Shown: positions 23,471 to 41,367, numbered from the stretch's first letter. The stretch: 64,000 bases of DNA from an uncultured Acidobacteriota bacterium (GCA_963843575.1 CAWJKZ010000009.1:1-64000); one strand, 5' to 3'. A program made the numbers and translations. Notes: generated by a model from the sequence alone, not told the origin.

Positions 23471-24334
23471 TCAGCTCCCGGCTTTGGTCGCCAGCTCGCC
23501 TGCGGCGTCACCGGTCGTCTTCACCCTGGGCCGGGCGGTCTCCTGCCGCCAGTAAAGAACCCCCAGGGTCAAGGCGACCAGCCCGCAGATCACGCCGTAG
23601 GTCGGGCCGGTATCCAGGCCGGGTTTGTATTGTGAAAAGGTAAGAGCCCAGACTACGAACAAGGATGCCGAGTACACGATGAGCATCTGAACCCCCATTT
23701 TGATCTCGGCCCAGTCCCTGAGAAAATACATGGTCGCCGCCCACACGCCGCAGGCCGCCGGCCAGGCCGCCATCACCCGGGCGTCAAAAGGCTGCACGTC
23801 CCAAGGCCAGCGCGTGGTGGCGAATTCCGGGTTGATGAACAGGAAACCTCCGCCGGTGATGCCCAAGACAAAGACGACCGCCAGCGCGCGCTGCAGCCAG
23901 ATGGAAACCGGACCTTCGGAGGCTTCAACGGGCACAGGCCGCCTGCTGTCGGGACCGTGAGGCTCGGTCAACACGAGCACCAGCGGCTCGATGGTGTATG
24001 CGAGCACCCAGATGTGAGCGATGCCGGTGTGCAATCTCCAATTCATCTCGTTGAGGTGCCAGTAGGTCGCCAGGAAGAGCACCCCCAGAAACGTGTAGTT
24101 TCCCCACACGATCCAGCGCAAGCGATGCCAGTATTTTTCGTGGAACAGGTGGAAGCCCAGGAACACCCGCAGAATGAAGGAAGTGCCGATGAACATGGCC
24201 GAGAGCCGCTGCGGGATAGGCCAGGCGAACTGGGACCCGGTATCCGGCAGGAACAGGAGCCACACTACAAACACAGACGCGAGCAGAAACTGGACGATAC
24301 CGACGCCGTTGATGGAAGCGGGTTTTCTGAGCAT
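23471..24334 (-). CDS. Multi-pass integral membrane protein of unknown function
   Basis: GAGGAGGA RBS; about eight hydrophobic segments; internal duplication (FAWPIPQRLSAM / WPWDVQPFDAR). Confidence 0.8.
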   Translation of the reverse strand: MLRKPASINGVGIVQFLLASVFVVWLLFLPDTGSQFAWPIPQRLSAMFIGTSFILRVFLGFHLFHEKYWHRLRWIVWGNYTFLGVLFLATYWHLNEMNWRLHTGIAHIWVLAYTIEPLVLVLTEPHGPDSRRPVPVEASEGPVSIWLQRALAVVFVLGITGGGFLFINPEFATTRWPWDVQPFDARVMAAWPAACGVWAATMYFLRDWAEIKMGVQMLIVYSASLFVVWALTFSQYKPGLDTGPTYGVICGLVALTLGVLYWRQETARPRVKTTGDAAGELATKAGS

Positions 24335-24887
24335 CGCTTTCCTCCTCTGTAACCGAGCGCCGCATGCGGGCGCGCGCGCGGACGCAATGTCGATGCAATA
24401 TCGTTGAGCGCATTCGTGCCGAGGTTGCTGTATTCCTTCAGCAGGTGCTGCATGCCGTACCTGGCATTCCCACGGTTGCAGGCGAGAAGGGTCGGGGAGC
24501 GGAAAGTGCGGTGAAACAACCCTCCTAACCACCGAATTGGCAAACCGCTGTGTGATCAGTGTGACCCGAGGCTGTCTAGATTCTAGCGCGGCGCGGATGG
24601 TGCGGCAATCCCCCGGCCGGTCGTCGTCTGACCTGCCGTTGCGTTCGCCGCCGTGCGCGCGGGCGCGCCGGGGCTTCCGGTTAAAGGACGGGTCTCGGGG
24701 CGTTTGGCCGGGATTTGCATCACGCGGTCGAGTGCGATAGATTTTGCACAGTTCGGTTAAATGTATCGGCAAAATCGGGTGCCGTAGCCACCAGCCATTG
24801 GTCTCAAGTTCCGTGACGCTCCGACGTGCGCTGTCTTCAGCAGCACGCTTCGATGCGGGATTACTGCAGCTTCGTGCGGCGTGAGAG

Positions 24888-26462
24888 GTGCGTGCAATGT
24901 TCGCCCGGCTTCGCTTCTGGATCTACCGTCACATCGTGGGGCTCTTCACCTGGGTTTCGTTCCGGACGCAGCGTGTCGAGCCGCTGCAACCCCCGACCGA
25001 GACCAGGGTCGGGTTCCGCCCGCACGCGGCGTCGTTTCCCGACATGCCCATCGAGGGCCTGTTCGACACCACGAGCTTCCCTGCGTCGGATGCGCCCCGT
25101 CTGCGCCGCATGAGGCTTGCAAAGAAGTTGCTGTCGCTGGTGCGGCGTATCGCTCCGCCGGCCGCACCGCCCGTCCCCGATGACGAGCGCCGGTACCTGG
25201 CGGCGTTGTACCCCGCCTCTTTCCGCCGGGCTTGGCCTCTGGCGCCGCAGGTGCCGGCCGAGTTGAAGAAGAACAGGGCGGGTCCCGATCCCGATCTCAT
25301 CGCCGAGCTGGCGGTGGGCGGCCCGTTCGCGTGCTTCCTGCGTCGCGCCACGGACGATGAAGTCCGCGGCGGCCAGGCGGCGGCGGACTCGTATGTGATC
25401 GACCTTTCCTGGATGCTTGGCCACCCGGCCTTCCCGAACCTGGTGCGCCCCGGCGGCAAGGCCGTGCTGAAGGTGCAGGACGGGCGCCTGCGGACGGTGG
25501 GCCTGCACCGCCAGGACAAGTGGGTGCCGGCGGCCGAATTGCGCGGTAGGCGGCAGGAGAGCGAAGCGCTGCTGGCGGCGATGAACGAAGACGTCACCGT
25601 CTTCCGCCACTGCTTGTCGGTGCACCTGGCGACCCTGACCCCATTCGCGCTCGCAACGACGAATTGTCTCGGCCTGGACCATCCTGTCCGGCGCGTGCTG
25701 CACCACTGTTTTCACACGGTGCTGGTCGGGAACCACGAGGTTGCGGAATTCCAGCTCTCGGGCCCGCAAGGGTTCGCCGCCACGATCTTCTCCCACGACA
25801 GCCGCACGATCGCCCGCATGGCCGCCGAGCACCTCGGCCGGTACGACTTCTGGGAATTCGAGCCCGAAACCTGGTTTGCGCGGCAGGCGACCGCGGAAAC
25901 ACCGTTCGCCTACCCGTACCGCGACAACGTTCTCGAGCTGTGGGCCGCGACACGGGCTTACCTGGAAGCGTACGTGCGACTCTACTACGACGGCGACGCG
26001 GCCCTCCGCGCGGACACGGAACTCAAGGCCTGGATGATCGAACTCAACCGGCTCGTGCCCAACGGCATTCGGATTCCCGAGGGTGGACCCACGCGCGACT
26101 GGCTGTCGCGCGTGTGTGCGACGCTCATCCAGGTGTCCATAGTGGAGCATGACTACGTCGCCAACGTGGCGTGGAACTATTCGACCCTGGGGTGGATCGT
26201 GCCTACGGCGGTGCCGCTTTCCGGGGAGAGGATGGACCAGCGGCGCGCCTTCGATCTCATCGCTACCATGATCGTCACCTGGAAACCGTACAACATGCTC
26301 CTGACCGCCGACGTGCCCGCGCTCGCGCTCGACGAAGCCGGCAGGCGCGTGATGACCCGGTGGATCGCCGACCTCGGCCGGATTCAGCGGGAGATGGAAG
26401 CGCGAGGCCAGCGGCTGTCGCTCTCCTATCCCGCCAACCTCAACGTCAGCGTGTCCAACTGA
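24888..26462 (+). CDS. Lipoxygenase-family protein (compact, no obvious PLAT domain)
   Basis: RHCLSVH..PFALAT.NCL..DHPVRRVL (LOX His cluster), YPYRD, LKAW, EHDYVAN, C-terminus NLNVSVSN. Confidence 0.8.
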   Translation: MRAMFARLRFWIYRHIVGLFTWVSFRTQRVEPLQPPTETRVGFRPHAASFPDMPIEGLFDTTSFPASDAPRLRRMRLAKKLLSLVRRIAPPAAPPVPDDERRYLAALYPASFRRAWPLAPQVPAELKKNRAGPDPDLIAELAVGGPFACFLRRATDDEVRGGQAAADSYVIDLSWMLGHPAFPNLVRPGGKAVLKVQDGRLRTVGLHRQDKWVPAAELRGRRQESEALLAAMNEDVTVFRHCLSVHLATLTPFALATTNCLGLDHPVRRVLHHCFHTVLVGNHEVAEFQLSGPQGFAATIFSHDSRTIARMAAEHLGRYDFWEFEPETWFARQATAETPFAYPYRDNVLELWAATRAYLEAYVRLYYDGDAALRADTELKAWMIELNRLVPNGIRIPEGGPTRDWLSRVCATLIQVSIVEHDYVANVAWNYSTLGWIVPTAVPLSGERMDQRRAFDLIATMIVTWKPYNMLLTADVPALALDEAGRRVMTRWIADLGRIQREMEARGQRLSLSYPANLNVSVSN

Positions 26463-26606
26463 GACGCCCGCGGCCCGGAGGCGGGTACGGGACGGTGGAT
26501 GCCACATGACCGGTCAGACGACGGACGCTCCATCGCGGGAGAAAACCAGTCGCAGCGGCGCATACGGCTGCTGCAAACCGCGCAATCCTGACTCCGTGAG
26601 AATCCG

Positions 26607-28760
26607 ATGACCCTGAGCGTGCCCCCGCGAGTTCCTGGCAGGCCCCTGATCGGCAATACCCTCGACCTCCTGCGCGACCCCGCGGGATTCCTGGTCGGGA
26701 GTTATCGCCAATTCGGGCCGGTATTCCGGGTGAGCGCATTCGGCATGGCCTACACCGTGATGGCGGGCCGCGAGGCGATGCAATTTCTAACCACGACCGG
26801 TGAGAAGCATTTCAGCCGCGCGACGTTTTACCGGCGCTTCGCGCGCGAACTGGGCACGCGGGAATTCATCCTCGGGGCGCAGGGCGCCCGCCACGGCCAG
26901 CTGCGCAGGGTGATGAAGCTGGGCTTCTCCCGGCAGGTCGCCGAACCCCACATCCCGGCCATGGTCGACGGGGTGAGCAAGCGCGCCCGGGAGTGGTCCG
27001 CCGGCCAGCGCCTCAGGGTGCCGGAACTGATGGCGGACCTGGCGTTCGACGCCTACTGCCTCGTGATGGCCGGGACCCCGCTGCACGAATATTTCCGCGA
27101 GGCCCTCACCTATTCCGAGACCATCATGAGGGTGGGGGCGAAGGTGCGCCCCTCGGCCCTCCTCTTGCTTCCGCACTATCTCCGGGCGAAGCGGCGCGTC
27201 TTCTCGCTGATGCAACGGCTGCTCGAGGAACACCGTTACCATCGGGAAGATCCCGAGCGCGAATTCGATCTGTTTTATGCGCTCCTGGATGGGACCTCAG
27301 ACGACGGGGAGACGCTCGCGGACAGCGACATTGTCGCGTCCGCCCTCTACGGTTTCGTGGGCACCCTGGTCTACCTCAGCCGCGTTCTGGGGTACCTGTT
27401 GTACGAACTGCTCAAGAACCCGGCGCTACGGGACCAGGCGACCCGAGAAGCCGACGCGGTGCTGGGCGCCGGCACCGTGACTGCACAGGGTCTGCGGAGG
27501 ATGAATACGCTGCAGAATGCTTATCTCGAAACCCTGCGCTTCCACCCTGTCGCGCTGGGTTTGCCTTATCTGGCGGAGCAGGATTTCGAGTTCGCGGGAC
27601 GGCTGGTCCGCAAGGGGGCCCGGATCGTGCTCACGCCCCTGCCGGTTCACTTCTCATCCGACTTCTACAGCAGCCCGCACTGCTTCGACAGCGGGCGCTG
27701 CGCGGAGCCCCGCCGGGAGATACACGCGAGCGGGGCGTACGCGCCGTTCGGCTTCGACGGGCGGGTTTGTGCGGCGGCAGGCCTCGTCGAAATCATCAGC
27801 CTCGCCACCATCGCCGCGCTCCTGCACGCGGCCGACCTGCGTCTGCAACCTCCCGGCTACGACATCAAGACGGTGCTCAATCCGCTCCCCGGACCCGAGA
27901 AGGCGTTTGCCGTGCAGGTCGCCGGGCTGCGGACTCCGGGCACTGCTGCGCCGGCGCTCTCCCCCGTCGAGGGGCTCGGGGCGGCCACCGCGGAGTCGGG
28001 CTCGCCGCAATGGAACGAGCTGCTGTCACGTGTGACGACCGCCGACTACGAGGCGGCGGCCCTCATCATCCGGGAAGGGGAGGCCGCAACCCGCTTCTTC
28101 ATCCTGCAGGAGGGGACGGTGGAGGTCCTCAAGCGCCAGGAGTCCGGTCGGGAGAGGATCCTCGCCACGCTCGGACCAGGCGACTACTTCGGCGAGATCG
28201 GCCTGCTGAGGAGAATCCCGCGCACGGCGAGCGTGCGGGCTCGCTCCGCGGTGAAAACCCTGGTCGTCGACCGCGACACCTTCGTGGAAATGATCGCCGA
28301 ATCGGACCTCGTCAGCGAACAGATCGCCGGCACGATCCGGCGTCGGATCATGGCCGTCCGCCTCGCTGAAGCGCTTCCCCGGTTGACTCCGGATCAGCTC
28401 GCCCGCTTCCTGCCGAATTTCAGCCTCGCGCGTTATGCCCCGGGGGAGACCATCGTGCGCCAGGGTGATCCCTCCGACGCTTTCTTCGTGATCGTGAGCG
28501 GCCGCATCGAGGTGGTCAAGCACAGGGAAGGCGGCCGTGACTGGGTGCTGCAGGAAATGGGAGCCGGAGAGTGGTTTGGCGAAATCGGGATCCTGCTGGG
28601 CAAGCCGCGCAGCGCCACCGTGCGCGCGGCCGCCGGCGACGAAACCGAAGTGATGAGGCTGGCGCAGGAAGACTTCAAAACCCTGCTGGGCGAGTCGACC
28701 CCCACCACGACCGACATCTGGGGAGTGATGTCGCGGCGCCTGTCGGCCCTGAAGGGATAG
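26607..28760 (+). CDS. Cytochrome P450 fused to two C-terminal cyclic-nucleotide-binding domains
   Basis: PGRPLIGN start, ETLR (ExxR), PFGFDGRVC heme-Cys; two cassettes GDYFGEIGLL..PRTASV and GEWFGEIGIL..PRSATV. Confidence 0.9.
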   Translation: MTLSVPPRVPGRPLIGNTLDLLRDPAGFLVGSYRQFGPVFRVSAFGMAYTVMAGREAMQFLTTTGEKHFSRATFYRRFARELGTREFILGAQGARHGQLRRVMKLGFSRQVAEPHIPAMVDGVSKRAREWSAGQRLRVPELMADLAFDAYCLVMAGTPLHEYFREALTYSETIMRVGAKVRPSALLLLPHYLRAKRRVFSLMQRLLEEHRYHREDPEREFDLFYALLDGTSDDGETLADSDIVASALYGFVGTLVYLSRVLGYLLYELLKNPALRDQATREADAVLGAGTVTAQGLRRMNTLQNAYLETLRFHPVALGLPYLAEQDFEFAGRLVRKGARIVLTPLPVHFSSDFYSSPHCFDSGRCAEPRREIHASGAYAPFGFDGRVCAAAGLVEIISLATIAALLHAADLRLQPPGYDIKTVLNPLPGPEKAFAVQVAGLRTPGTAAPALSPVEGLGAATAESGSPQWNELLSRVTTADYEAAALIIREGEAATRFFILQEGTVEVLKRQESGRERILATLGPGDYFGEIGLLRRIPRTASVRARSAVKTLVVDRDTFVEMIAESDLVSEQIAGTIRRRIMAVRLAEALPRLTPDQLARFLPNFSLARYAPGETIVRQGDPSDAFFVIVSGRIEVVKHREGGRDWVLQEMGAGEWFGEIGILLGKPRSATVRAAAGDETEVMRLAQEDFKTLLGESTPTTTDIWGVMSRRLSALKG

Positions 28761-29013
28761 TCACAAAAAGGGGCGGCCGCGTCCGACAGGCACTCGAGCG
28801 GCTCCTCCGATTCCCGCGATGCGCGGCCCGCCCGGGGCGCGGCGGCGAGGCGGAAAGCCCGCGTGAATGCGGGCGTGCCGCGACCTTGACGCTCGTGTGG
28901 GGTTGAGATAGGATTTTAGCAAGCATTGGGTGGCTAATTCTCGGGTCACTACGTTTACGACCAATCGCAGTTACGTCGGGCTGTCACCGAGCATCGCACG
29001 GAGATCTGTCCGC

Positions 29014-31215
29014 TTGATTGATACGCTTGCATCACTGTCGGTGTTTCGCGATCTCCCCAAGTCCGACTTGCTCTGGCTCGCTTCCGAAGTCGAACAGGTC
29101 GACCTCCCGGCCGGGGCGGTGCTGTTCCGGCAGGGGGATCCCGGCGACGCGATCTATATCGTCCGTTCGGGGAGGCTGCAGGTTGAGCTGACCCTGGCCG
29201 GTGCCCCGGCCCAGGCGCTGGCCACGATCGAGACGGGCGAGGTTGTCGGCGAGATGGCGACGCTGTTCGAGCGGCCGCGGGCTGCGACCGTATCCGCTCT
29301 GTCGGAGGTCACGCTGCTCAAGGTTAGCGCGTCGAGCCTCGCCCGGCTGTTTACGCTCAATCCGTCGGCGCGGAAGCAGCTGCTCGAGGCCACGACGCGC
29401 CGCCTCCCGAGCCTGTACCTGGCCCGCGTGCCGATCTTCGCCGGGCTCGAGCCCGAGGCGTTCCGGGAGCTGGACCTCGAGTCCAATTGGGTGCGGCTCG
29501 CGGGAGGGCAGACCCTGTTCAAGCAGGGCGATCCCGCGGATTACCTCTATGTCATCGTGCAGGGCCGGCTCGAGGTGCTACTGGAGTGCGGCGGCGGGCG
29601 GCAGGAGATGGTCGATCAACTCGGCCAGGGCGCCTGCGTGGGCGAGATTGCGCTGCTCACGGGCGAGCCGCGCACGGCCACCGTCCGGGCCATCCGGGAC
29701 TCCGAACTCGTCCGCCTGTCGAAGGCGGACGTCTACCGCCTGGTCGAGCGCAATCCGCGCGGGGCCGTCGAGATGCTGCGGATCCTGGCGGGACGGGTGC
29801 GCCCGATCGCCCCGGCGGGCCGCCGCTCGGCGGTGGCAACGATCGCGGTGGTGCCGGCGGGCGAGCGCCCGCTGCCGCCCGGATGGACCGAGCGGCTGGT
29901 CGGGGCGCTCTCGCAGGCCGGCGGCCCCACGCTCCACGTCAGCCGTGACCGGATCGACGAGGCGCTCGGGGGACGCGCCGCTTCGTCGCTGCAGGACGAG
30001 ATAGCGCGGGTCCGGGTCGCGACGTGGCTGCGCGAGCAGGAGGATCGCTTCCGGTATGTCGTTTCGGAGTGCGATCCGGCCCAATCGCCCTGGACGGGTT
30101 TCTGCCTGCGCCACGCCGACCTCGTCCTGCTCGTCGCTCCCGAGGACGCCACGCCGTCGCGGGGCGAAGCAGCCCGGTGCCTCTTCGAAACCGACGTCGT
30201 GCCACGGTCGGTGGCCAGGGAACTCGTGCGGCTGCATGCCCCGGAGACCGCCCAGCCCGGCGGGACCGCGCAGTGGCTCGACGTCTTTCCGGTAGCCCGC
30301 CACCACCACGTCCGCGTCGATCGTGCGGAGGATTACGCCCGCCTGGCCCGGTTCATAGCCGGCAAGGCGGTGGGTCTCGCCATGAGCGGCGGCGGCGCGC
30401 GCGCCTTCGCGCACATCGGCGTGATGCGGGCGCTCGGTGAGACCGGCGTGCCCCTCGACGCGGTGGGCGGCGTGAGCGCGGGTGCTTTCAGTGCGGCGTT
30501 CGGCGCGATGCAATACGACACCGACACGATCAGCCGGATTACCCGCGAGTACATGGGGCAGTACCGTCTCATCAGCGACGCCACCGTCCCCCTCGTGGCG
30601 TTCCTGTCGAGCCGGAGAATGGTGCGCGTGCTCCGGAGCATGTTCGGAGAGGTCCGAATCGAGGACCTCTGGCTGCCGTTTTTCTGCATCTCCGCCAATC
30701 TCAGCACGGCGGAGGTAGTGGTTTTCGACCGCGGCCCGCTCTGGAAGGGAGTCCGGGCCACGACCTCCGTGCCCGGCATCACGCCGCCCGTATGCGTCGA
30801 CGGCGGGTTCCTGGTGGACGGCGGCGTGCTCAACAACCTGCCCGCCGACATCATGCGCCTCCGCTGCAACGGGACGGTGATCGCTTCGGATGTGGGCCTG
30901 GGAGGCGCTCTCGCCGCCGGGACCGAGGAGATAACCTCCCTGTCGGGATGGCCCCTGCTCTGGAGCAGGCTGAGCCCGTGGGGACAGAAGACGACGGTGC
31001 CCCACATCTTCGAGATACTCATGCGTACGGCTACTTTGAGCAGCACGCTGAACGCCGCCTCGGTGGCGCACAGCGCCGACCTGTACATCCGGACGCCCAC
31101 GGAGGGCGTCCCGACCTTCGACTGGAACGCCGGGACGGTCCTCGTGGAACGCGGATACCGTCTGGCGCTCCGGGAAATCGCCAAATGGCAAGACCGCGGA
31201 GGATTCCGACCATGA
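29014..31215 (+). CDS. NTE-like patatin phospholipase with two N-terminal cNMP-binding domains
   Basis: GEMATL..PRAAT and GEIALL..PRTAT cassettes; SGGGARAFAHIG oxyanion loop, GVSAG nucleophile, VDGG; ORF open from 28930. Confidence 0.92.
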   Translation: MIDTLASLSVFRDLPKSDLLWLASEVEQVDLPAGAVLFRQGDPGDAIYIVRSGRLQVELTLAGAPAQALATIETGEVVGEMATLFERPRAATVSALSEVTLLKVSASSLARLFTLNPSARKQLLEATTRRLPSLYLARVPIFAGLEPEAFRELDLESNWVRLAGGQTLFKQGDPADYLYVIVQGRLEVLLECGGGRQEMVDQLGQGACVGEIALLTGEPRTATVRAIRDSELVRLSKADVYRLVERNPRGAVEMLRILAGRVRPIAPAGRRSAVATIAVVPAGERPLPPGWTERLVGALSQAGGPTLHVSRDRIDEALGGRAASSLQDEIARVRVATWLREQEDRFRYVVSECDPAQSPWTGFCLRHADLVLLVAPEDATPSRGEAARCLFETDVVPRSVARELVRLHAPETAQPGGTAQWLDVFPVARHHHVRVDRAEDYARLARFIAGKAVGLAMSGGGARAFAHIGVMRALGETGVPLDAVGGVSAGAFSAAFGAMQYDTDTISRITREYMGQYRLISDATVPLVAFLSSRRMVRVLRSMFGEVRIEDLWLPFFCISANLSTAEVVVFDRGPLWKGVRATTSVPGITPPVCVDGGFLVDGGVLNNLPADIMRLRCNGTVIASDVGLGGALAAGTEEITSLSGWPLLWSRLSPWGQKTTVPHIFEILMRTATLSSTLNAASVAHSADLYIRTPTEGVPTFDWNAGTVLVERGYRLALREIAKWQDRGGFRP

Positions 31216-34200
31216 ACGACGCTGTGACGGCCAACCGGTTCGCTATCGTGGCCATTGGCTGCAGGTTCCCCGGAGGCGCCAACACCCCGGAGCAGTTCTG
31301 GAAGCTGCTGTGCGACGGCACCGACGCCATCACCGAAGTTCCACCCGAACGTTTCGACCTGGCGGAGCTGTACGATTCCGACCAGAGCCGGCCGGGCAAG
31401 ATCTACACCCGCTGGGGCGGGTTCGTCGACCACATGGACGAGTTCGACGCCGAGTTTTTCGGCATCTCGCCGCGGGAAGCCGTTCGGATCGATCCGCAGC
31501 AACGCCTCCTGCTGGAGGTGGTCTGGGAAGCGCTCGAAGACGGAGGACAGCCGCTAGAACGGTTTGCGGGCTCGAAAACGGGCGTGTTCATCGGCATCTC
31601 GACCCACGACTACTACGATCTGCAGATCAATCCTCACAACCGGCACCGGATCGACGCCTACGGGGGCACCGGCACCGCCTTGAGCATCGCGGCGAACCGG
31701 ATCTCCTACGCCTACGACCTGCGCGGCCCGAGCGTCGCCGTGGACACGGCGTGTTCGTCCTCGTTGACCGCCGTGCACCTCGCCTGCCGCAGCCTGAGGA
31801 ACGGGGACTGCGAGCTGGCGATCGCCGGCGGCGTAAACGCCTTTCTCAGGCCGGAGGTGGCGATCGGGTTCTGCCGGGCCTCGATGTTGTCGCCCGACGG
31901 ACGCTGCAAGACGTTCGACGCCAGCGCGAACGGATTCGTGCGCGGCGAGGGCGCCGGCGTCGTCATCCTGAAGCCACTGGCGGCGGCGGTCGCGGACGGG
32001 GACAAGATCTATGCCGTCGTGCGCGGCACTGCCATCAACCAGGATGGGAGGACGGTGGGCCTGACCCTTCCGAGCGCCGAAGCCCAGGAAGCCCTCATCA
32101 GCGAGGCCCTGCGCGACGGCGGCGTGCAACCCCATGCCGTACAGTATGTCGAAGCGCACGGCACCGGGACGCGCGTGGGCGATCCGATTGAGGCCGCGGC
32201 CATCGGTCACGTGCTCTCAACCGGCCGCAGCGCGTCGAAGCCCTGCGTGATCGGGTCGGTCAAGACCAACATCGGCCACCTGGAGGCGGCCGCGGGCATC
32301 GCCGGCCTCATCAAGGCGTCGCTCGCGCTCACGAACCGGATGATCCCGCCCAGTATTCACTTCCGCTCCGCCAATCCCGCCATCCCGTTTGACGACCTGC
32401 GGCTGCGGGTGGCGACCGAGCTGCAGCCCTGGCCGTGCAACGGCGGCCGGGCACTGGCGAGTGTCAACTCCTTCGGCTTCGGGGGCGCAAACGCCCACGT
32501 CGTGCTCGAAGAAGGCCCCCGGCCAGACGATGCCGTGAGTATCCGGGATCACGAGCCCCTCTGCATCCTACCCATCTCGGCCCGGCATCCGGGTTCCCTC
32601 CGGGAACTCGCCCGCCGTTACCGCGACCTCCTCGCCGGGGCCGACGCCCCGCCGCTCGCGGACCTGTGTTACAGCGCCGCGGTGCGACGCAGCCATCACC
32701 CGCACCGCGCCGCCTTCGTCGGGCCCGGCCGCGCGGAGATGATCGAGCAGTTGGATTCCTTCCTGTCCCGTGACGACCCCCCTGCGCCGGGACGCGGCGC
32801 CCGCGCCAGGGAACCGAAACTGGCGTTTGTCTTCACCGGCATGGGACCGCAGTGGTGGGGCATGGGACGCCAGCTCTTCGACACCGAACCGCTCTTCCGG
32901 GAGGCCGTCGAGGAGTGCGACCGGCTGTTTCGGGGCGTCGGCACCTGGTCGCTGATGCAGGCCCTCGGGGCCGACGAGCCGCACTCCCGGGTTCACGAGG
33001 CGGACGTCGCGCCCGCCGCGAATCTCGCCATCCAGGTGGGGCTCACACGGCTGTGGCGCTCCTGGGGGATCGTCCCCGACGCCATCGTCGGGCACAGCGC
33101 CGGGGAAATCGGCGCCGCGTGGGCGGCCGGCGCCCTCAGCCTCGAGGATGCCCTCAAGGTGGCATACCATCGCGGCCGTTTGCAGTCCCGCGCGGCTGGC
33201 TCCGGGACCATGCTCGCGGCCGGTGTCTCCGAGGATGACGCCGTCCGGCTCCTCGAGGGGCTGAGCGATCGAGTCTCGATCGCAGCCATCAACAGCCCAA
33301 CTTCCGTCACGTTTTCCGGCGAGCGCGAGGCGCTGGAGCGGATCGCGACGGAGCTCGCGCGCCGGCAACGCTTCAACCGCTTCCTGCCGGTGGAGGTGCC
33401 CTATCACGCGCCCTGTTTCGATGCCTTCCGGAAGGAGTTCGTCGAGCTGCTCGCGCCGCTCGAGCCCCGTCCGCCGGCGGTGCCACTCATGTCCACCGTG
33501 TCGGGCGCATGGCTCGACGGGGCGCCCGTCGACGAGAACTACTGGTACGAGAACCTCCGGCGTTCCGTGCGCTTCGCCGAAGCCGTCGATCGGCTCGTCC
33601 AGGATGAGTACGAGCTCTTTGTCGAGATCGGTCCTCACCCTGTCCTCGCGGCGTCGATCTCGGAGTGTCTCGCCGCCCGCGCCAAACCCGGTATGACCCT
33701 CCCTTCGCTCCGCCGTAAGGAGGAGGAGCGGCGGGTCCTGCTGCGTTCGGTTGCGGACATTTACAGTCGCGGCCGGCGCGTCGAGTGGTCCGGCGTCTGC
33801 GGAACCCGCAGGTTCGTTCCGTTGCCGCGCTATCCCTGGCAGCGGGAACGGTACTGGTTCAACGGGGAGGAGGGTTCCGCCCACGGGCCTTCGGGCACCG
33901 ACAGCGGGCACCCGCTGCTCGGATACCGCCTGCGGTCGGCGCGCCCCACCTGGGAGGTCGAGCTGGGCCGGCCGCAGCTCGATTACCTCGACGATCACAT
34001 CGTCCAGGGGAACCCCGTGTTCCCGGCTGCCGCCTACGCGGAGCTGGCACTGGCGGCCGCCCGCGAGATAGCGCCCGGTACCGTCCCGGTCCTGGAGGAA
34101 CTCGCGTTCCGGAAGGTGCTCTTCCTGACCGAGCGCAAGGAGGGGCTCCTCCAGTTTGTGCTCGACCCGCAGCGTTCCTCGTTCGAGATCCACGGCGCCT

Positions 34201-37200
34201 CCGGGAACGGCGGGGCCGCATGGACCCTGCACGCCGACGGCAAGCTGAGGACCCGACCGGCTGAGTCCGGGCCGCAGGCGGCCGACATCGCCGGGATCCG
34301 CGGGCGCTGCCCGGACGAGGTGCCTGCGGCCTCGGCCTATCAGGCCCTGGAAGCCAGGGGGCTCTGCTACCGGGGCGCCTTCCGCGGCATCGAGGCGCTC
34401 TGGCGCGGCGGCGGCGAGGCGCTGGCCCGCATCGGGTCGTTAACGGCAACCCAGCCGGATGCCGGCCCATACCGCATCGATCCGGCGCTGCTCGACTCCG
34501 CGTTCCAGGCCATGCTGGCGGCCGCCGAGTCGGCGGGTGCGGGCCGCATCAACGCGAGAGGCCTCCACCTGCCCGTGTCGATCCGGCGGCTGACGCTCTG
34601 GCGCGAGCCCGGACCAGGGTTCTGGAGCCATGCGAAGGTCACCCGGTTCGACACCGAGGTTCTCGAAGGCGACATCACGATCGCGGACGAGAAGGGGGAG
34701 GTCGCGATGGCGATCGAGGGCCTCCGGTGCAAAACCCTCGACAACAGCGCGAGGTCGGCGCGGACCGGACTGGACGATCTGCTTTACCAGCTCAGCTGGG
34801 AACGGGAGCCGCTCAAGAGACGGGCCGCCCGCGAGGCGATGGCGGTTCGGGGCGCGGCGGAGCTGGGGGCACGGATGCAGCCCGTGGCCGACCGCCTGGC
34901 GGCAGCAGAAGGGCGATGGTCGGAGCGGCTCGAGCACGAGCCTGAAGTCACTGCAATCGTCGCCCACTTCGCGCGGGCCGCCTTTATCGCCCTCGGGTGG
35001 AATCCCGGCACATCCCTGCCCAACGATGCCGAGGCCCTGTCCGCGCGCCTCGGCATCGCCGGCCGCCACCGCCGATTCTTCGGGCGGCTGCTCGAAATCG
35101 TGCGGGAAGCCGGCGGTCTGGGCGGGTCGGCCGACACGGCCGACTCGCAACGCCTCGCCGCCGAAGGACTGTGCACGCGCCTGCTGGAGGAGTTTCCCGA
35201 GTGCCGGGCGGTGGTCGATTTGCTGCGGCGCTGCGGCGCGCGTCTGGACGCCGTCCTGAAAGGCGAGCTGGATCCGCGCGAAGTGCTGTTCGCGCCGGAG
35301 GCGGTGTCGTCTTGGGCCCATTTCTTCATCGAAGACCCATTGTACGAATTCTATAACACGCTCGTCGCGGAGACTGTTGCCGCCGCAGTAAAGGAGGTCC
35401 CGCCCGACGCCCGGCTGCGGATCCTCGAGATCGGGGCCGGCACGGGCGGAACGACGGTGCCCGTGCTCAGTCGACTCGCGAACCGACACGTCGAATACCA
35501 CTTTACCGACGTGTCGACGTTCTTCCTGGCCGAAGCGCGCGACCGCTTCAGAGCTCAGTCGAACGTCCGCTTCAGCGCTCTCGACATCGAATCGGACCCG
35601 GTAGCTCAAATCGGGGCCGAGCCGTTCGACATCGTTCTCGCGGCCAATGTCCTGCACGCGACGGCCGACCTGCGCAGGTCGCTGAAACACATCCGCCAGG
35701 TGCTTGCGCCGGGAGGGCTGGTCATGCTGCTCGAGGCGACGCGCAAGATCGCCTGGGCGGATCTGATCTTTGGCATGACGGAAGGATGGTGGCGCTTCGC
35801 CGACCTCGATCTGCGTCCCGACTACCCCCTGCTCGAACCTCATCAATGGAAGCGGGTTCTCGGCGAGGCAGGCTTCGAGGAGGCAGCAGGGATCTCGGAT
35901 CCGAACAGCGACAACGGCTCCATGCAGACTGTGCTGCTGGCGACACTCCCGAAAAAGGCCGGACGGGCTGCCGACACTCGGGTGGCGAAGGGCTGGGTCG
36001 CCGTTGTCGACTCCTCGGGTTTCGGGGCGCGGGTCGCCGCGGCACTGCGAAGTCAGGGCGACCGCTGCGTCTGCGTCGCCGGCGGAGGAGACTACTCGCG
36101 CGATGGCGACACGGTGCGGATGGCGCTCGACCGCCCCGATCATGTGGCGCACCTCGTCGAAGAACTGGCGGCGGAGGGTTTCGAGATCCACGGCTTGATC
36201 CACGCGTTGAGCCTCGACATCCCCGGTCCGGCCGGGTTGAGCGCCTCCGAGGTGGTAAGCGCACCTCAGGCGTCGTGCGACAGCCTGATCGGCCTGGTCA
36301 AAGGCTTCGATCAGGCCGGACGGGCCTTGCCGCCCATATGGCTCCTCACCTCGGACGCCGAAGCGATCGAGCCCGGGCAAGCGGCGGCGAACCTGACCCA
36401 AGCCCCGCTCCGGGGTTTCGGCCGGGTGCTGGCAAGCGAGTTCTCAGGCATCCGCTGCCGGCTCGTGGACCTTGGTCCGCGGCCCGAAGAAGGCGAGGTT
36501 CAGGCTTTGCTCGACGAACTCGAAGCCGACGACGTCGAGGAAGAGGTGGCGCTGCGCGGGTCGGAACGGTACGTGGCCCGATTGCGCCGGAGGCGCCTTG
36601 ACGATCTCCATCCGGCCGATCGCGTCCGTGCGCTGTCGCCGGACGCGCACGGCTTCAGGTTGGACATCGACACGCCCGGTGCGCTCGAGAGCCTGATGTT
36701 GCGCGAGACGCCCGATCGGCGGCCCGGGCGGGGGAAGTCCTCATCCGCGTGTTTGCGGCCGGCCTCAACTTCCGCGACGTGATGCTGTCGCTCGGCATGC
36801 TGCCCCCGATGACGATCCCGGGGGCGGCCGGCAAGACGATCCTGGGCTTCGAGTGCGCGGGGGTGGTCGTCGAGTGCGGCGCGGGAGTGGAAGACGTCCG
36901 CCCGGGCGACGAGGTGATGGCCGTGGCGATCGGGGCTTTTGCCTCGCAGGTCGTCACCCGTGCCGAGCTCGTGGCGCGCAAGCCCGGACACCTGACCTTC
37001 GAGGAAGCCGCCACGATCCCGCTGGTGTTCATCACGGCCCACTACGGGTTGACCCATCTCGCGCGGCTTGCCGCGGGCGAGCGGGTGCTCATCCACGCCG
37101 CGACCGGCGGGGTGGGGCTGGCGGCGATCCAGCTTGCCCGGCGGGCCGGCGCCCGGATCTTCGCCACCGCCGGAAACCCCGAGAAGCGCGCCTACTTGAA

Positions 37201-39697
37201 GTCGATCGGGATCGACCACGTAATGGACTCCCGGTCGCTGGCGTTCGCCGACGAGGTGTTGGCGGACACCCACGGCGAGGGGGTCGACGTCGTGCTCAAT
37301 TCCCTGGCCGGGGAGGCGATTACGAAAGGGCTCTCCGTTCTCCGCCCGTGCGGCCGTTTCCTGGAGCTGGGCAAACGCGACATCCACGCGAACGCGCCCA
37401 TCGGCCTGCTCCCCTTCGACAAGAACCTCTCCTTCTCCTCGATCGCGCTGGACCGGATGTGCCTCGATCAGCCTGCCCTGGTCGGCTCCCTCCTGCGGGA
37501 GATCGCAGCGCTTTTGGAGGACGGGGGACTCCAGCCCATTCCCCACAACGCCTTCGACCTTTCCGAGGCAGAACAGGCTCTGCGCCTCCTGGCCCAGGCG
37601 AAGCACATCGGCAAGCTCGTGCTCACGGTGCGCGGGGCGGAGTACCCGGTGGGGCCGTGTCTCGACCGGCCCGCCTGCCGTCCCGACGCGACCTACGTCG
37701 TTTCCGGCGGGCTCGGCGGGTTCGGCCTGGCAGTTGCCAGCTGGATGGTCGAGAGAGGGGCGCGCCACCTGGTCCTGATGAGCCGCAGCGGCGCACCGTC
37801 GGTCGAGAACCGGCCGGCGTTCGACGCGCTTCGGGAATCGGCCGCGGACGTCGTGGTGTTCAAGGGCGACGTGGGCGACGAAGACGACGTGCGCCGCATG
37901 CTGGGCGAGATTCGAGAGAACCTGCCGCCGCTCCGAGGCGTCGTGCACGCCGCCATGGTCCTCGACGACGCGCTCCTGGCGCAGCTCAACGCCGAGCGGT
38001 TCCGCGCGGTGCTCTCGCCCAAGGTCGGCGGGGCGTGGAACCTGCATCGCCTGACGGCGGCCGACGAGCTCGACTTCTTCGTCATGTTTTCGTCCACCTC
38101 TTCGCTGCTCGGCATGAAGGGGCAGGCTAATTACGCTGCCGGGAACGCATTCCTCGACGCGCTCGCCCCCTATCGCCGCTCGCTCGGGTTGCCGGCGCTG
38201 ACCGTCAACTGGGGCGGTATCGCCGAGGTCGGCTATTTGTCGGTCCATCAGGACATCATGCAGCTCCTGAACCGCCACGGACTGGAGTCGATCACCCCGG
38301 CGGAGGCTACCGACGGGTTGGCGGAGGCCTTGCGGTCGGGGGTCCCCAGGTTGACGATCATGCGTGTCGATTGGGCCCGATATTCGTCGATAGATGAGGC
38401 TTCGGCGTTCGTGAAGAAGGCGCGGCGCCTGGCCCACTTCCTCTCCACAGAACAGGCCGCGGCCCCGGATGCGGCGGCCGGGCGCGGGTCGCTGTTGACT
38501 CTCCTGCTGGAGTCGGAGCCCGATCAGAGGCGAGCTCTGGTAGAGGGCCGGGTGGCGGAAAACGTGGCGCGTGTGCTCGGCACGTCTGTCAAGAAAATCG
38601 ACCCGGGTGCGCCACTCACCGACATGGGCGTCGATTCGCTGATGGCCGTCGAGCTGCAGACAATCCTCAAGCGCGACTTCGGGGTATTCCTGCCGCTCAC
38701 TTCTTTTCTCGAGAGCGTCTCGGTGGTACAGCTCGCGACCAAAGTACTCGGGCAACTCGCGGACGAGGCCACACCCGCACCGGGCGCGACGCCGGAGGCG
38801 GTCGCCCCGGCCGGGCCCGAAGAGGCAGGCGAAAGCACTCTGACGGCAAAAGCGCCGGCGAGGGCGCCGGACCTCCCGGCCGTCGAGGTGCGCAACTGTG
38901 CCCCGGTCGAGCCGTCGCCCGCAACACCCGAGTCGCTCCCTGCTGCCGCGGCAGCGAGGGTGGTCGATCCACCCAGCGATCCGATCATGCGGCGGCCGGA
39001 ACGCCCGGCAGGCCTTCCGGTCAAAACGGGCGGCTCCGAATCGATCGACGGCCGCTGGACCCCCATGGAGAAGTTCGTCAAGCGCGTGCTCTCGCTGGCG
39101 TTCGGGCTGCTGGCGCGCGTAGAGGTCACCGGTCTCGAGAATCTGCCGCGCTCGGGCCCCGTGCTGCTGGCCGTCAATCACCTCAGCATGATGGATCTCC
39201 CCCTGCTGGTCACAATCGTGCCGCGACGCGGTATTTGCCTGGCGGCCGACCGGCTGCAGGAGCAGCCGTGGGCCCGTTGGTTTCTCGATCTCGCCCACAG
39301 CATCTATGTCCGTCGCGGCGAGGCCGACCAGGATGCGCTCGACAAAGCACTGGCCGTTCTGCGGGCCGGGCGTCTGCTCGGCGTCGCGCCTGAAGGTACC
39401 CGAAGCCGCTCCGGTCTCGCACGGGGACACTCGGGACTGGCTTACCTGGCCGCCGCCGCGCCGGCCCCGATCCTGCCCGTTGCGGCCTATGGCCAGGAGC
39501 GGATTCCGGGCAACGCGAAGCGGTTGCGGCGCACGCGCGTGGAGGTGCGCATCGGGTCGCTCATTCAGGTCGAGCCAGGCGAGAAGGCCGCAGCCGAGCT
39601 CCGCCGCATTACCGATCGGGTCATGGAGGCGATTGCCGCCATGCTGCCCCCGGCCTACCGCGGCGTTTACGCCGGGGTGTCCGAACGATCTGCATAA
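31212..39697 (+). CDS. Type I highly reducing PKS KS-AT-DH-cMT-ER-KR-ACP with C-terminal PlsC acyltransferase; one frameshift near 36730
   Basis: DTACSSS/HGTGT/NIGHLE (KS), GHSAG (AT), DHIVQGNPVFP and DSAFQ (DH), LEIGAGTGG (MT), HAATGGVG (ER), GGLGGFG/LDD/YAAGN (KR), GVDSL (ACP), NHLSMMD and PEGTRS (PlsC); ATGA overlap with the patatin stop. Confidence 0.93.
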
Positions 39698-40773: not shown

Positions 40774-41367
40774 ATGTCGCGCACGCCTTGGCACCAAAGG
40801 GAATGGTTTGCCAGTACGCTCCGGAGCATCGGCGACGGCGTCATCGCCACGGACCGTGAGGGGCGGGTGACGTTCATGAACACGGTTGCGGAATCGCTGA
40901 CCGGGTGGAGCGAGGCCGAGGGGGCCGGTCGGCCTCTAGCCGAGGTTTTTTCGATCGTCCGCGCGGCCACGCGCGAGCCGGTTAGTGACCTTGCAGAGCG
41001 TGTCCTGAGGGAAAGCGCCATCGTCGTGTTCTCCAAGCCTTCGCTCCTTTTGGCGCGCGACGGAACCGAGCGGCCGGTCGACGACTCGGCAGCCCCGATA
41101 CGCGGCGAGAACGGGGAGACCATCGGCGTCGTGCTGGTCTTCCGCGACGTATCCGTAAGGGCGATCGCAGAGGCCGAGCGTGCCCAGTTCCTTGCCCGGG
41201 AGAGCGCCGCACTGCGCGAGGCCGAAACTGCCCGACTCGCCAAGGACACGTATCTCGCCACGATGGCGCACGACCTGCGCACTCCGCTCAACGCGATTCT
41301 CGGCTGGTCGAGCCTGCTACGCACCCGGAATCAACCTAGTCCTGTACGACTAGCGGATTTGGTCTGA
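40774..41367 (+). pseudogene. PAS-domain histidine kinase fragment (no ATPase domain)
   Basis: TLRSIGDGVIATD..PAS..VLVFRDV; HDLRTPLNAILGW, then ends. Confidence 0.8.

What the first reader, a model, noticed from the sequence alone, without database searches (positions are those of the whole stretch)
24888..39697. Candidate cyclic-nucleotide-gated bacterial oxylipin (eicosanoid-like) pathway: LOX + P450-cNMP2 + cNMP2-patatin + PKS-acyltransferase
Seen: four co-oriented genes, with patatin and PKS coupled by an ATGA overlap; two of them carry tandem cNMP domains. Established: in animals and plants a phospholipase frees an acyl chain, lipoxygenase makes a hydroperoxide, and CYP74/prostanoid-type P450s rearrange it; PlsC domains acylate lysophospholipids. 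Inference: the PKS builds a dedicated acyl chain and esterifies it into membrane lipid, a cNMP signal activates the patatin to release it, LOX oxygenates it, and the cNMP-controlled P450 converts it to a signal or toxin. I know no described bacterial system with this combination.
Basis: partly seen in the sequence, partly recalled or inferred. Interest (0 to 1): 0.92.

Follow-up and report, generated by a model that had tools for sequence, protein, structure and literature searches.

The report
Lipid-remodelling genes beside orphan LOX, P450
The four lipid genes are real, but comparison with other genomes shows only the phospholipase and the polyketide synthase-acyltransferase as a recurring unit, most likely swapping a custom acyl chain into membrane lipid under cyclic-nucleotide control, while the lipoxygenase and the P450 normally occur elsewhere without each other.

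Summary
Four co-oriented genes lie at 24888-39697: a mini-lipoxygenase-like gene, P450-cNMPx2, cNMPx2-NTE-patatin, and a KS-AT-DH-cMT-ER-KR-ACP-PlsC synthase joined to the patatin by an ATGA overlap. The PKS reading frame is split by one 1-nt frameshift near 36731-36737. Essential rpoC is also split in this assembly, so the shift is probably an assembly error.

The single-pathway reading is not supported.
- 0 of 20 P450-cNMP loci from other genomes have a LOX, patatin domain or PKS nearby.
- 0 of 14 genomes that carry such a P450 have this LOX family.
- 0 of 44 LOX loci have a P450, patatin or PKS.
- Instead, 22 of 24 LOX loci with at least 900 nt of upstream flank carry an animal-haem-peroxidase gene, which this genome lacks.
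- The P450 is CYP51-like, not CYP74-like.
- The PKS is fully reducing and has no FabA-type isomerase, so its product is an unlikely LOX substrate.
- The window's LOX is the only 1 of 120 with Ala at the canonical Asn iron-ligand position.

What is supported is the patatin + ACP-PlsC link. 4 of 4 other Acidobacteriota genomes with an ACP-PlsC homolog have the operon FAAL - cNMP-patatin - ACP-PlsC. Best reading: a cNMP-gated phospholipid acyl-exchange module, with an unrelated cNMP-P450 and an orphan LOX beside it.

The parts
24897..26462 (+). Divergent mini-lipoxygenase-like gene (521 aa from ATG 24897; the ORF opens at GTG 24888). It lacks its family's usual haem-peroxidase neighbour.
   Evidence: PF00305 at 39.9 bits. 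The family profile hits the Cyanothece mini-LOX 5MED at E 7.5e-23. FRHxxxxH and EHD are present, but the window has EHDYVAN where 116 of 120 family members have N at His+4.
26607..28760 (+). Cytochrome P450 fused to two PKA/PKG-type cyclic-nucleotide-binding domains (717 aa).
   Evidence: Pfam. Both phosphate-binding cassettes are intact: FGE..PRTA and FGE..PRSA. The nearest solved relatives are CYP51 and CYP120. In the I-helix, G252-T253-L254-V255-Y256 aligns to the canonical A-G-x-D/E-T. The AlphaFold2 model has pLDDT 87.2.
28930..31215 (+). cNMPx2 - NTE P-loop-like - patatin phospholipase (761 aa as listed; the true start may lie further downstream).
   Evidence: Pfam. GGGARA, GVSAG and DGG are present. 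The family is very large: 3713 representatives at E<=1e-30.
31212..36737 (+). PKS, first reading frame: KS-AT-DH-cMT and the linker before ER. The ATG overlaps the patatin stop (ATGA).
   Evidence: Pfam. Motifs DTACSS, HGTGT, NIGH, GHSAG, HxxxGxxxxP and ILEIGAGTGG are present. Colinear with P0187/P0188.
36725..36737 (+). Single 1-nt frameshift inside the ER N-terminus, in a G/C homopolymer-rich run. Probably an assembly error.
   Evidence: rpoC is split into at least 3 frames and most RND genes are fragmented in the same assembly.
36731..39697 (+). PKS, second reading frame: ER-KR-ACP-PlsC/AGPAT acyltransferase.
   Evidence: Pfam. GGVG, LDD, GVDSL, NHLSMMD and PEGTR are present. NCBIfam: Pks2-like at 2.7e-132 (below cut-off), TIGR00530, and the Aas-type PRK08633 at 3e-16. 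33 single-chain homologs with PF01553 exist, 32 of them 2651-3098 aa and one 2129 aa.

Best explanation
The locus is a juxtaposition of three units, not one conserved pathway.

(A) The last two genes form a working unit, a cyclic-nucleotide-gated phospholipid acyl-exchange module.
- The NTE-type patatin removes an acyl chain from a membrane phospholipid and leaves a lysophospholipid. Its activity is presumably switched by cAMP/cGMP binding to its tandem cNMP domains.
- The single-module, presumably iterative, fully reducing and C-methylating type I PKS builds a dedicated acyl chain on its own ACP. The chain is probably saturated and methyl-branched.
- The terminal PlsC/AGPAT domain passes that chain from the ACP straight onto the lysolipid.
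- This is a PKS-fed version of the operon FAAL - cNMP-patatin - ACP-PlsC found in other Acidobacteriota.

(B) The P450-cNMPx2 belongs to a small family that stands alone in other genomes. It has a CYP51-like fold but no acid-alcohol pair in the I-helix, and its substrate is unknown.

(C) The LOX-like gene belongs to a family that normally sits beside an animal-haem-peroxidase gene. Here it is an orphan with a changed iron-ligand position.

Shown: domain content, motifs, the gene overlap, and co-occurrence or its lack. Inferred: the direction of acyl flow, the product type, cNMP activation, and iterative PKS action.
For: Patatin-PKS link:
- ATGA overlap with a Shine-Dalgarno-like GGAGGA.
- ACP-PlsC homologs were found in G241, G843 and G884 (3 of 151 genomes in G241's order) and in G007 (1 of 136 other genomes of the window's own class).
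- All 4 of 4 show FAAL -> cNMP-NTE-patatin -> ACP-PlsC on one strand, adjacent or overlapping.
- Patatin relative P0302 and PKS-PlsC P0199 both sit on an NCBI contig of 18,593 bp. That is 1 match among the 20 top patatin representatives looked up.
- In a quick tree the PKS-linked patatins and the FAAL-operon patatins fall in two different well-supported clades, so the association is seen in two lineages.
- The PlsC part hits Aas-type acyl-[ACP]-phospholipid acyltransferase models.
- In myxobacterial Pfa3 an AGPAT domain is presumed to acylate 1-acylglycerol-3-phosphate (PMC6731297, passages read).

LOX and P450 not tied in:
- 0 of 20 P450(-cNMP) loci have LOX, patatin-domain or PKS hits, and no neighbour is shared beyond close kin.
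- 0 of 14 P450-cNMP genomes have this LOX family, with G000 as positive control at 9.6e-258.
- 0 of 44 LOX loci have P450, patatin or PKS hits; 20 of them have at least 2.5 kb downstream.
- 22 of 24 LOX loci with at least 900 nt upstream carry An_peroxidase, 1 has a weak hit and 1 has none.
- G000 has no An_peroxidase by tblastn.
- Apart from the window's own 253,015-bp contig, no contig length is shared between the LOX, P450 and PKS hit tables (compared by eye).
Against: - Four lipid genes, two with the same uncommon regulatory module, are co-oriented with gaps of only 144 and 169 nt, no terminator-like site between them, and matching GC3. This could be a newly assembled but functional pathway.
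- The P450 family lacks the I-helix acid-alcohol pair (V255-Y256, with Tyr invariant in 28 of 28). As I recall, peroxide- or hydroperoxide-using P450s show such a loss.
- The comparison material is limited. Many metagenome contigs are short. The nearest relatives are only 56-65% (P450), 58-61% (LOX) and 68-70% (PKS) identical. The contexts of the full-length PKS-PlsC homologs could not be fetched.
- There are no expression or biochemical data.
Confidence: 0.55

Rival explanations
1. LOX and P450-cNMP form a two-enzyme oxylipin pair. The Thr-less P450 has taken the place of the haem peroxidase that normally accompanies this LOX family. It converts a LOX-made hydroperoxide of some unsaturated lipid that the PKS does not make. 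The patatin/PKS-PlsC module next door is independent, or supplies only free fatty acid.
For: The LOX family almost always has an adjacent haem enzyme (22 of 24), and here the only adjacent haem enzyme is the P450. The I-helix lacks the acid-alcohol pair. No redox-partner gene is seen in the window. The gap is 144 nt with no terminator-like site.
Against: 0 of 14 P450-cNMP genomes have this LOX family. 0 of 44 LOX loci have a P450. The P450 fold and sequence are CYP51/CYP120/BM3-like, with no CYP74, CYP8A or CYP5A among the 50 listed structural matches. 5 of 17 P450-cNMP loci sit by isoprenoid-type genes. The window's LOX has Ala at the canonical Asn ligand position.
Confidence: 0.2
2. The PKS chain is esterified into lipid. 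cNMP-activated patatin releases it. LOX oxygenates it. The cNMP-controlled P450 rearranges the hydroperoxide into a signal or toxin.
For: Adjacency, a common strand and shared cNMP modules. An intact PlsC domain and the ATGA coupling. An adjacent RND efflux system that could export a product.
Against: There is no co-occurrence of the parts anywhere else that I could examine. The PKS has a complete KR-DH-ER loop and only a PKS-type DH, with no FabA-like isomerase, so a skipped cis-diene is not expected. The LOX's usual partner is a peroxidase. The relatives' operon uses a FAAL in place of the PKS, with no oxygenase.
Confidence: 0.1
3. Part of the locus is decaying. The PKS frameshift is real, the LOX is inactivated, and the neighbouring RND pump is broken, so the block is a relic in a region rich in mobile elements.
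For: The frameshift at 36731-36737. N->A at the LOX ligand position, unique among 120 members. RND fragments at 18186-21697. Integrases and IS91 and IS110 transposases lie at 8-14 kb.
Against: Essential rpoC is also split into at least 3 frames, and most RND genes genome-wide are fragmented, so indels are an assembly property. All catalytic motifs of the patatin, the PKS and the P450 Cys loop are intact. There is only one shift in 8.5 kb of PKS.
Confidence: 0.08
4. The adjacency of LOX, P450 and patatin is an assembly or binning chimera.
For: This is a MAG-like genome (27 contigs, 88% complete, 3.3% contamination). The block is absent from the same-genus genome G001. The flanks are full of repeated elements.
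Against: GC3 is homogeneous at 0.82-0.94 from 16.3 to 39.7 kb and lies within the genome's range. The patatin-PKS joint is a precise ATGA overlap. The PKS is colinear with its homologs.
Confidence: 0.05

Closest known systems
Myxobacterial PUFA synthase subunit Pfa3 with a C-terminal AGPAT domain (Aetherobacter, Minicystis; PMC6731297, passages read)
   Same: A PKS-like megasynthase ends in a 1-acylglycerol-3-phosphate acyltransferase domain, which is presumed to load the finished chain from ACP straight into a glycerolipid.
   Different: Pfa synthases are multi-subunit, have tandem ACPs and FabA-like DH/isomerase domains, and make PUFAs. Here there is one KS-AT-DH-cMT-ER-KR-ACP module with a C-methyltransferase and only a PKS-type DH. 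It is coupled to a cNMP-patatin that is not part of the pfa clusters (the last point is recalled).
Aas / AasC + LPAT lysophospholipid re-acylation (E. coli Aas, recalled; Chlamydia CT775/CT776, PMC5693948, search listing and abstract only)
   Same: An acyl-ACP made by a dedicated AMP-ligase is used by a PlsC-type acyltransferase to re-acylate lysophospholipid. The relatives' operon FAAL + ACP-PlsC has the same logic, and the PlsC part hits Aas models.
   Different: Here the acyl source is a whole PKS fused to the ACP-PlsC, and a cNMP-binding phospholipase is encoded inside the operon.
NTE/PNPLA6-7 family lysophospholipases with cNMP-binding domains, and their bacterial homologs
   Same: The same architecture: cNMP domains, an NTE P-loop-like domain and patatin with GxSxG and DGG. 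The family is very common in bacteria (3713 representatives).
   Different: The animal enzymes are ER membrane proteins not linked to an acyltransferase gene. The CBDs were reported as not essential in the truncated abstract start of PMC9319352 (search listing only). Regulation in bacteria was not tested here.
Mycocerosic-acid-synthase-like iterative PKSs (mycobacterial Mas, Pks2) and fungal highly reducing PKSs
   Same: A single fully reducing module. The ER-KR-ACP part best matches the Pks2 model (2.7e-132). The domain order with cMT matches fungal HR-PKS (recalled).
   Different: The score is below the NCBIfam cut-off (442 against 2400). Release is by a fused PlsC rather than by a separate PapA-type acyltransferase. 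The methyl branch probably comes from the cMT, not from methylmalonyl-CoA: the AT motif VPYHAP is ambiguous.
LOX followed by a hydroperoxide-converting haem enzyme (plant LOX-CYP74, coral and cyanobacterial catalase-like AOS-LOX fusions, fungal DOX-CYP fusions; PMC13049297, abstract seen in search listing only)
   Same: A dioxygenase gene lies next to a haem enzyme. The P450 lacks the I-helix Thr.
   Different: The P450 is CYP51-like by sequence and fold. Its Cys loop has normal spacing. The pairing is found in no other locus examined.

Membership tests
Lipoxygenase (PF00305) | Significant match to the family model or to solved LOX structures | tested here: met
   PF00305 at 39.9 bits against a cut-off of 23.6, over residues 238-391 only. 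The family profile hits 5MED at E 7.5e-23.
Lipoxygenase (PF00305) | First two iron ligands, H-x4-H in the long helix | tested here: met
   FRHCLSVH in the window. FRHxxxxH is present in 107 of 120 family members and aligns to HLARTH of 5MED.
Lipoxygenase (PF00305) | Third His followed by an Asn/His ligand at +4 | tested here: not met
   His421 is present, but position +4 is Ala (EHDYVAN). 116 of 120 members have Asn there, and the window's protein is the only one with Ala. Asn426 at +5 is invariant. Whether it can substitute was not tested.
Lipoxygenase (PF00305) | C-terminal Ile carboxylate as iron ligand (recalled definition) | tested here: inconclusive
   The protein, like 95 of 120 family members, ends in ...SISN. 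The ligand is the main-chain carboxylate, so the side chain may not matter.
CYP74 / prostanoid-type (hydroperoxide-rearranging) P450 | Nearest relatives by sequence or fold are CYP74, CYP8A or CYP5A | tested here: not met
   The top PDB hits are CYP51, CYP120, CYP3A and BM3. Among the 50 Foldseek matches listed there are CYP51, CYP204A3, CYP120A1, BM3 and CYP184A1, and no CYP74/8A/5A.
CYP74 / prostanoid-type (hydroperoxide-rearranging) P450 | Loss of the I-helix acid-alcohol pair | tested here: met
   The canonical A-G-x-D/E-T aligns to G252-T253-L254-V255-Y256. Y256 and R259 are invariant in 28 of 28.
CYP74 / prostanoid-type (hydroperoxide-rearranging) P450 | Insertion in the Cys-ligand loop (CYP74; recalled) | tested here: not met
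   The loop APFGFDGRVCAAAG has ordinary spacing, with F at C-7 and R at C-2.
CYP51 sterol 14-alpha-demethylase | Closest fold and sequence, plus the CYP51 I-helix His-Thr signature | tested here: not met
   CYP51 is the closest fold (TM 0.86 to 6MCW), but identity is 21-22% and the I-helix has V-Y where M. capsulatus CYP51 has H-T. It resembles CYP51 without being a member.
NTE-type patatin phospholipase | cNMP domain(s) + NTE P-loop-like domain + patatin domain with a Gly-rich oxyanion motif, GxSxG and a catalytic Asp | tested here: met
   Pfam. SGGGARA, GVSAG and DGG are present.
PlsC/AGPAT acyltransferase | HX4D and (F/P)EGTR motifs | tested here: met
   NHLSMMD and PEGTR. PF01553 at 2.5e-27. 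TIGR00530 at 2e-19, below its cut-off.
Highly reducing / MAS-like iterative type I PKS | A single KS-AT-DH-(cMT)-ER-KR-ACP module with intact catalytic motifs | tested here: met
   Iterative use cannot be tested with these tools.
PUFA synthase (Pfa) | FabA-like DH/isomerase domains and tandem ACPs | tested here: not met
   Only PS-DH/PKS_DH_N and one PP-binding domain were found.
Conserved four-gene oxylipin operon | The gene set recurs together in other genomes | tested here: not met
   0 of 20 P450 loci, 0 of 44 LOX loci, and 0 of 14 P450-cNMP genomes with this LOX. It is absent from 40 relatives.
FAAL/PKS - cNMP-patatin - ACP-PlsC operon (defined here) | A patatin gene directly beside a gene or domain pair ACP-PlsC, with a dedicated acyl-loading enzyme | tested here: met
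   Window: the patatin overlaps the PKS-ACP-PlsC gene. G241, G843, G884 and G007 have FAAL-patatin-ACP-PlsC.

The most novel reading that the evidence does not exclude
A cyclic-nucleotide signal switches on a newly assembled bacterial eicosanoid-like cascade. It opens a patatin/PKS-PlsC acyl-exchange in the membrane. At the same time it activates a P450 without the I-helix Thr, which has replaced the haem peroxidase as the partner of a LOX. Lipid release, oxygenation and hydroperoxide conversion would then answer to a single second messenger. Even without the LOX link, the P450-cNMP fusion (Tyr in place of the I-helix Thr) would be the first allosterically cNMP-gated P450 that I could find, and the patatin-PKS-PlsC pair would be a second-messenger-controlled bacterial Lands cycle that writes a polyketide chain into phospholipid.
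Probability: 0.12. Interest if true: 0.85.

Novelty: new variant of a known kind. Interest (0 to 1): 0.5.

Why it matters
If the patatin/PKS-PlsC reading is right, bacteria have a signal-controlled way to cut one acyl chain out of a phospholipid and write in a custom chain made on the spot. That would be a Lands cycle with its own chain factory. The module comes in two forms, FAAL-fed and PKS-fed. This gives a direct handle on how unusual (methyl-branched) membrane lipids arise in Acidobacteria, a group whose lipids are used as environmental proxies; any link to those proxy lipids is pure speculation. Three families surfaced that the papers I could search do not describe. They are a P450 fused to tandem cNMP domains with Tyr replacing the catalytic Thr, the FAAL-patatin-ACP-PlsC operon, and a tight LOX + animal-haem-peroxidase gene pair. 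The last is the better candidate for a real bacterial oxylipin system than the locus in this window.

Tried and rejected
- **GC island.** The window profile shows 0.64-0.70 over about 16-40 kb against 0.57-0.60 in the flanks. Genome-wide the mean is 0.641 with sd 0.024 per 10 kb, and the GC3 of long ORFs has median 0.74 and 95th percentile 0.88. The cluster (GC3 0.82-0.86) is high but within range. It is the flanks, full of mobile elements, that are low. I therefore do not use composition as evidence of foreign origin.
- **Reads.** No RNA holder is listed, and no run holds more than 0.14 of the sampled words. Laying X1-X4 gave only short fragments of other organisms over conserved PKS parts. 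Neither the frameshift nor a chimeric join could be checked.
- **PF00305 family search.** The search of 10 P450-cNMP genomes found nothing, but the control rang nowhere, so it is uninformative. I replaced it with the A2 profile, using G000 as positive control.
- **Phylum search around G042.** This search returned the same sample. It only told me that G000 shares its phylum with the Terriglobia-titled record, and it cost 400 genomes.
- **Plasmids.** There was no ACP-PlsC match. There was one Planktothrix P450 at 35% identity, which I did not follow.
- **Synteny with L010.** The closest P450 locus in the genome-contig scan is L010. The two membrane-fusion proteins are only 26% identical, and the unknown 433-aa protein has no match there.
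- **Other blanks.** Rfam over 14-46 kb gave no family. The window has no tRNA. The Atlas, Pfam and NCBIfam gave nothing for the 433-aa ORF at 23471-24772.
- **Patatin tree.** The tree is the quick tree only; the careful search did not finish. The PlsC-linked patatins do not form one clade, and the window's paralog on C17, which has no PlsC neighbour, sits in the same 14-row clade as the window's patatin. The tree therefore gives no orthology argument. One row (G843) was dropped because my ORF extraction returned 27 aa.
- **Contig-length matching.** Used as a proxy for co-location, this found 1 of 20 patatin representatives on a PKS-PlsC contig. A near-match, 16,694 against 16,693 bp between a P450 hit and a patatin hit, I treat as coincidence.
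- **Context of the PKS-PlsC homologs.** I could not fetch the contexts of the full-length homologs P0187-P0219.
- **Literature.** I found no paper on a P450-cNMP fusion, on a LOX + haem-peroxidase gene pair (and the review PMC13319228 searched by terms), or on a FAAL-patatin-ACP-PlsC operon. This covers only the held library. I did not ask for any paper's supplements.

Full report
**What is there**

The window is the first 64 kb of a 253-kb contig of a 6.68-Mb, 27-contig genome that is 88% complete. Its phylum-level sample coincides with that of a record titled Terriglobia, so I take it to be an acidobacterium.
- a lipoxygenase-like gene;
- a P450 with two cNMP-binding domains;
- a protein with two cNMP-binding domains, an NTE P-loop-like domain and a patatin domain;
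- a type I PKS with KS, AT, DH, C-methyltransferase, ER, KR, ACP and a PlsC-type acyltransferase.

The patatin stop and the PKS start overlap as ATGA at 31212-31215, behind a GGAGGA. The gaps LOX-P450 and P450-patatin are 144 and 169 nt. They hold no terminator-like site, and one weak promoter-like site lies before the patatin.

**The broken PKS**

The PKS is two ORFs here. Single-chain homologs of 2770 and 2839 aa align to the DNA at 68-70% identity without loss. They change from frame 3 to frame 2 between 36731 and 36737, in the run cccgggcggggg at the start of the ER domain. 33 database proteins carry the full domain set with PF01553; 32 of them are 2651-3098 aa and one is 2129 aa. The same assembly splits the essential rpoC gene into at least three frames and fragments most of its RND transporter genes, including the one next to the cluster. 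The frameshift is therefore most likely an assembly indel, not a pseudogene. I could not confirm this with reads, because no served run holds the stretch.

**Do the four genes belong together?**

- **P450 side.** The P450-cNMP fusion is a small family: 47 of the 66 listed hits carry both domains, the window's own included. A scan of species genomes gave 17 full-length and 3 partial loci in Verrucomicrobiota, Acidobacteriota, Rokubacteria, Latescibacterota, Halomonadaceae and others. In 0 of these 20 loci did tblastn find a LOX, a patatin domain or a PKS within the stored flanks. No neighbour is shared beyond close kin.
- **Genome side.** With a profile of the LOX family, and the window's genome as positive control (E 9.6e-258), 0 of 14 other P450-cNMP genomes hold such a LOX.
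- **LOX side.** A metagenome scan gave 44 loci, and 0 have a P450, patatin or PKS hit. Of the 44, 20 have at least 2.5 kb downstream and 15 have at least 2.5 kb upstream.

In addition, 40 relatives, the same-genus genome included, lack both the LOX and the fusion P450. The same-genus genome has almost no DNA match to 16-40 kb. Apart from the window's own contig, no contig length is shared between the three hit tables (compared by eye). Within what I could reach, the combination is unique to this genome.

**What the LOX family normally does**

The LOX belongs to a family of proteins of about 500-520 aa, with more than 120 clusters. Named members come from Acidimicrobiales, Mumia and Pseudonocardiales. 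Its profile matches the Cyanothece mini-LOX (5MED, E 7.5e-23), with H-x4-H and the third His aligned.

Its conserved neighbour is an animal-haem-peroxidase (PF03098) protein of about 610-870 aa.
- It is clearly present in 22 of the 24 loci with at least 900 nt of upstream flank. One more locus has a weak hit and one has none.
- Fragments of it lie at the contig edge in 2 further loci.
- In most loci it lies directly upstream. In three near-identical loci it lies 2.6-2.8 kb away on the other strand.
- Several loci are near-duplicates, so the counts are not independent.
- One database protein is a LOX-peroxidase fusion (P0077).

The window's genome has no such peroxidase. Its LOX is also the only 1 of 120 with Ala instead of Asn four residues after the third His, which is the canonical fifth ligand position. 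116 of the 120 have Asn there. This LOX is thus an orphan, possibly with altered or lost iron binding.

**What the P450 is**

By sequence the P450 domain is nearest to CYP51 and CYP120. An AlphaFold2 model (pLDDT 87.2, pTM 0.83) is nearest to Methylococcus CYP51 (TM 0.86). Other CYP51s, CYP204A3, CYP120A1, BM3 and CYP184A1 follow, and no CYP74, CYP8A or CYP5A appears among the 50 listed matches. The Cys loop is ordinary.

Alignment to CYP51 and to canonical P450s places G252-T253-L254-V255-Y256 on A-G-x-D/E-T. The oxygen-activating acid-alcohol pair is therefore absent, and a Tyr invariant in 28 of 28 sequences takes the place of the Thr. That is unusual and keeps a peroxide-type chemistry possible.

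The neighbours of 5 of 17 family members are isoprenoid-type genes: squalene/phytoene synthase in two Halomonadaceae, squalene epoxidase in a Rokubacteria MAG, and geranylgeranyl-reductase-like or FAD enzymes in two others. This fits the CYP51-like fold. The tandem cNMP domains are PKA/PKG-like, with intact phosphate-binding cassettes. I found no paper on such a fusion.

**What the last two genes are**

The cNMP-NTE-patatin architecture is very common: 3713 representatives at E<=1e-30. Its motifs are intact. The PKS motifs are also intact. Its ER-KR-ACP part is most like the mycobacterial Pks2 model, and its PlsC part hits AGPAT and Aas-type models.

Searching the ACP-PlsC part gave these hits:
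- 1 other genome (G241) among 400 of the phylum;
- 3 of 151 genomes in G241's order;
- 1 of 136 other genomes (G007, same family as the window) in the window's own class.

In all 4 of these 4 genomes the small ACP-PlsC gene is the last gene of the operon FAAL -> cNMP-NTE-patatin -> ACP-PlsC. They represent at least three families and two classes. One patatin relative (P0302) shares its 18,593-bp NCBI contig length with a PKS-PlsC protein (P0199).

The window therefore carries a variant of a recurring module in which the acyl-loading FAAL is replaced by a whole PKS fused to the ACP-PlsC. The logic is that of Aas-type lysophospholipid re-acylation and of the AGPAT domain of myxobacterial Pfa3, with a phospholipase added. 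The simplest mechanism has three steps, all inferred:
1. The patatin makes the lysolipid.
2. The PKS makes the chain on its ACP.
3. The PlsC domain joins the two.

cNMP gating of the first step is also inferred.

**Why the PKS product is a poor LOX substrate**

The module has KR, a PKS-type DH and ER, plus a C-methyltransferase, and no FabA-like dehydratase/isomerase. Established PUFA-synthase chemistry needs the latter for skipped cis double bonds, and LOX needs a cis,cis-1,4-pentadiene. This is an inference, not a test.

**Surroundings**

Upstream on the other strand lie an unknown, membrane-like 433-aa ORF with no family and an RND efflux set of MFP, a fragmented RND gene and an OMP. Further out are two integrases, an IS91-type and an IS110-type transposase and a PIN gene. 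The 2.5-kb integrase + IS91 unit is multi-copy in the same-genus genome. A 40-nt inverted copy of its end lies at 45157-45196. Downstream are two-component genes, an ECF sigma factor and a Cus-like RND system. The setting is a rearrangement-prone region, which fits a recent juxtaposition.

**Verdict**

The genes are real. The integrated cNMP-gated oxylipin pathway is not supported, though it is not excluded. The patatin + PKS-PlsC pair is a sound and interesting unit.

Noticed in passing
L107-L150 (e.g. L107:7571-9952 + with LOX at 10001-11560; L132:639-2936 + with LOX at 2942-4438): This mini-LOX family has a conserved neighbour, an animal-haem-peroxidase (PF03098) protein of about 610-870 aa, often with an N-terminal TPR region. 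It is clearly present in 22 of 24 loci with at least 900 nt upstream. One database protein (P0077, 734 aa) is a fusion of the two. It looks like a genuine bacterial two-enzyme oxylipin system, and I found no paper on it.
   Followed up: partly
L154:9708-14196 (-), L158:5339-9791 (+), L159:5275-9705 (+), L165:10135-14739 (-): A conserved three-gene operon, FAAL (AMP-binding + DIP2-like C-domain) -> cNMP-NTE-patatin -> ACP-PlsC, is present in 4 of 4 Acidobacteriota genomes that hold the ACP-PlsC gene.
   Followed up: yes
window 26607-28760 and loci L009-L025: The P450-cNMPx2 family has an invariant Tyr where P450s have the I-helix Thr, and an invariant Arg three residues later. 5 of 17 loci have isoprenoid-type neighbours: squalene synthase (L018, L024), squalene epoxidase (L014), and GGR-like or FAD enzymes (L019, L010).
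   Followed up: partly
G000:C24:257298-261310; window 18186-21697 (-): The assembly carries many frameshifts. rpoC is split into at least 3 frames, and most RND transporter genes, the one beside the cluster included, are in pieces. Any apparent pseudogene in this genome needs checking.
   Followed up: partly
window 9048-11555, 11431-11470 and 45157-45196: A 2.5-kb unit with a tyrosine integrase and an IS91-type (Y2) transposase is present at 91% identity in two places in the same-genus genome. A 40-nt inverted copy of its end lies 33.7 kb away, so the two bracket the RND genes, the cluster and the two-component genes.
   Followed up: partly
window 23471-24772 (-): A 433-aa ORF divergent from the LOX, with hydrophobic stretches and GC3 of 0.74. 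It has no Pfam, NCBIfam or Atlas match.
   Followed up: partly
window 40774-41367 (+): A PAS + HisKA fragment of 197 aa ends inside the HisKA domain and is followed at once by a response-regulator gene. It is truncated or frameshifted.
   Followed up: no
L117:1099-2550 and 4547-6061: One metagenome contig carries two LOX-family genes, 27% and 55% identical to the window's, flanking the peroxidase gene.
   Followed up: no
G000:C17:212695-214842: A second cNMPx2-patatin paralog (39% identical) lies in the same genome with no PlsC gene beside it.
   Followed up: partly
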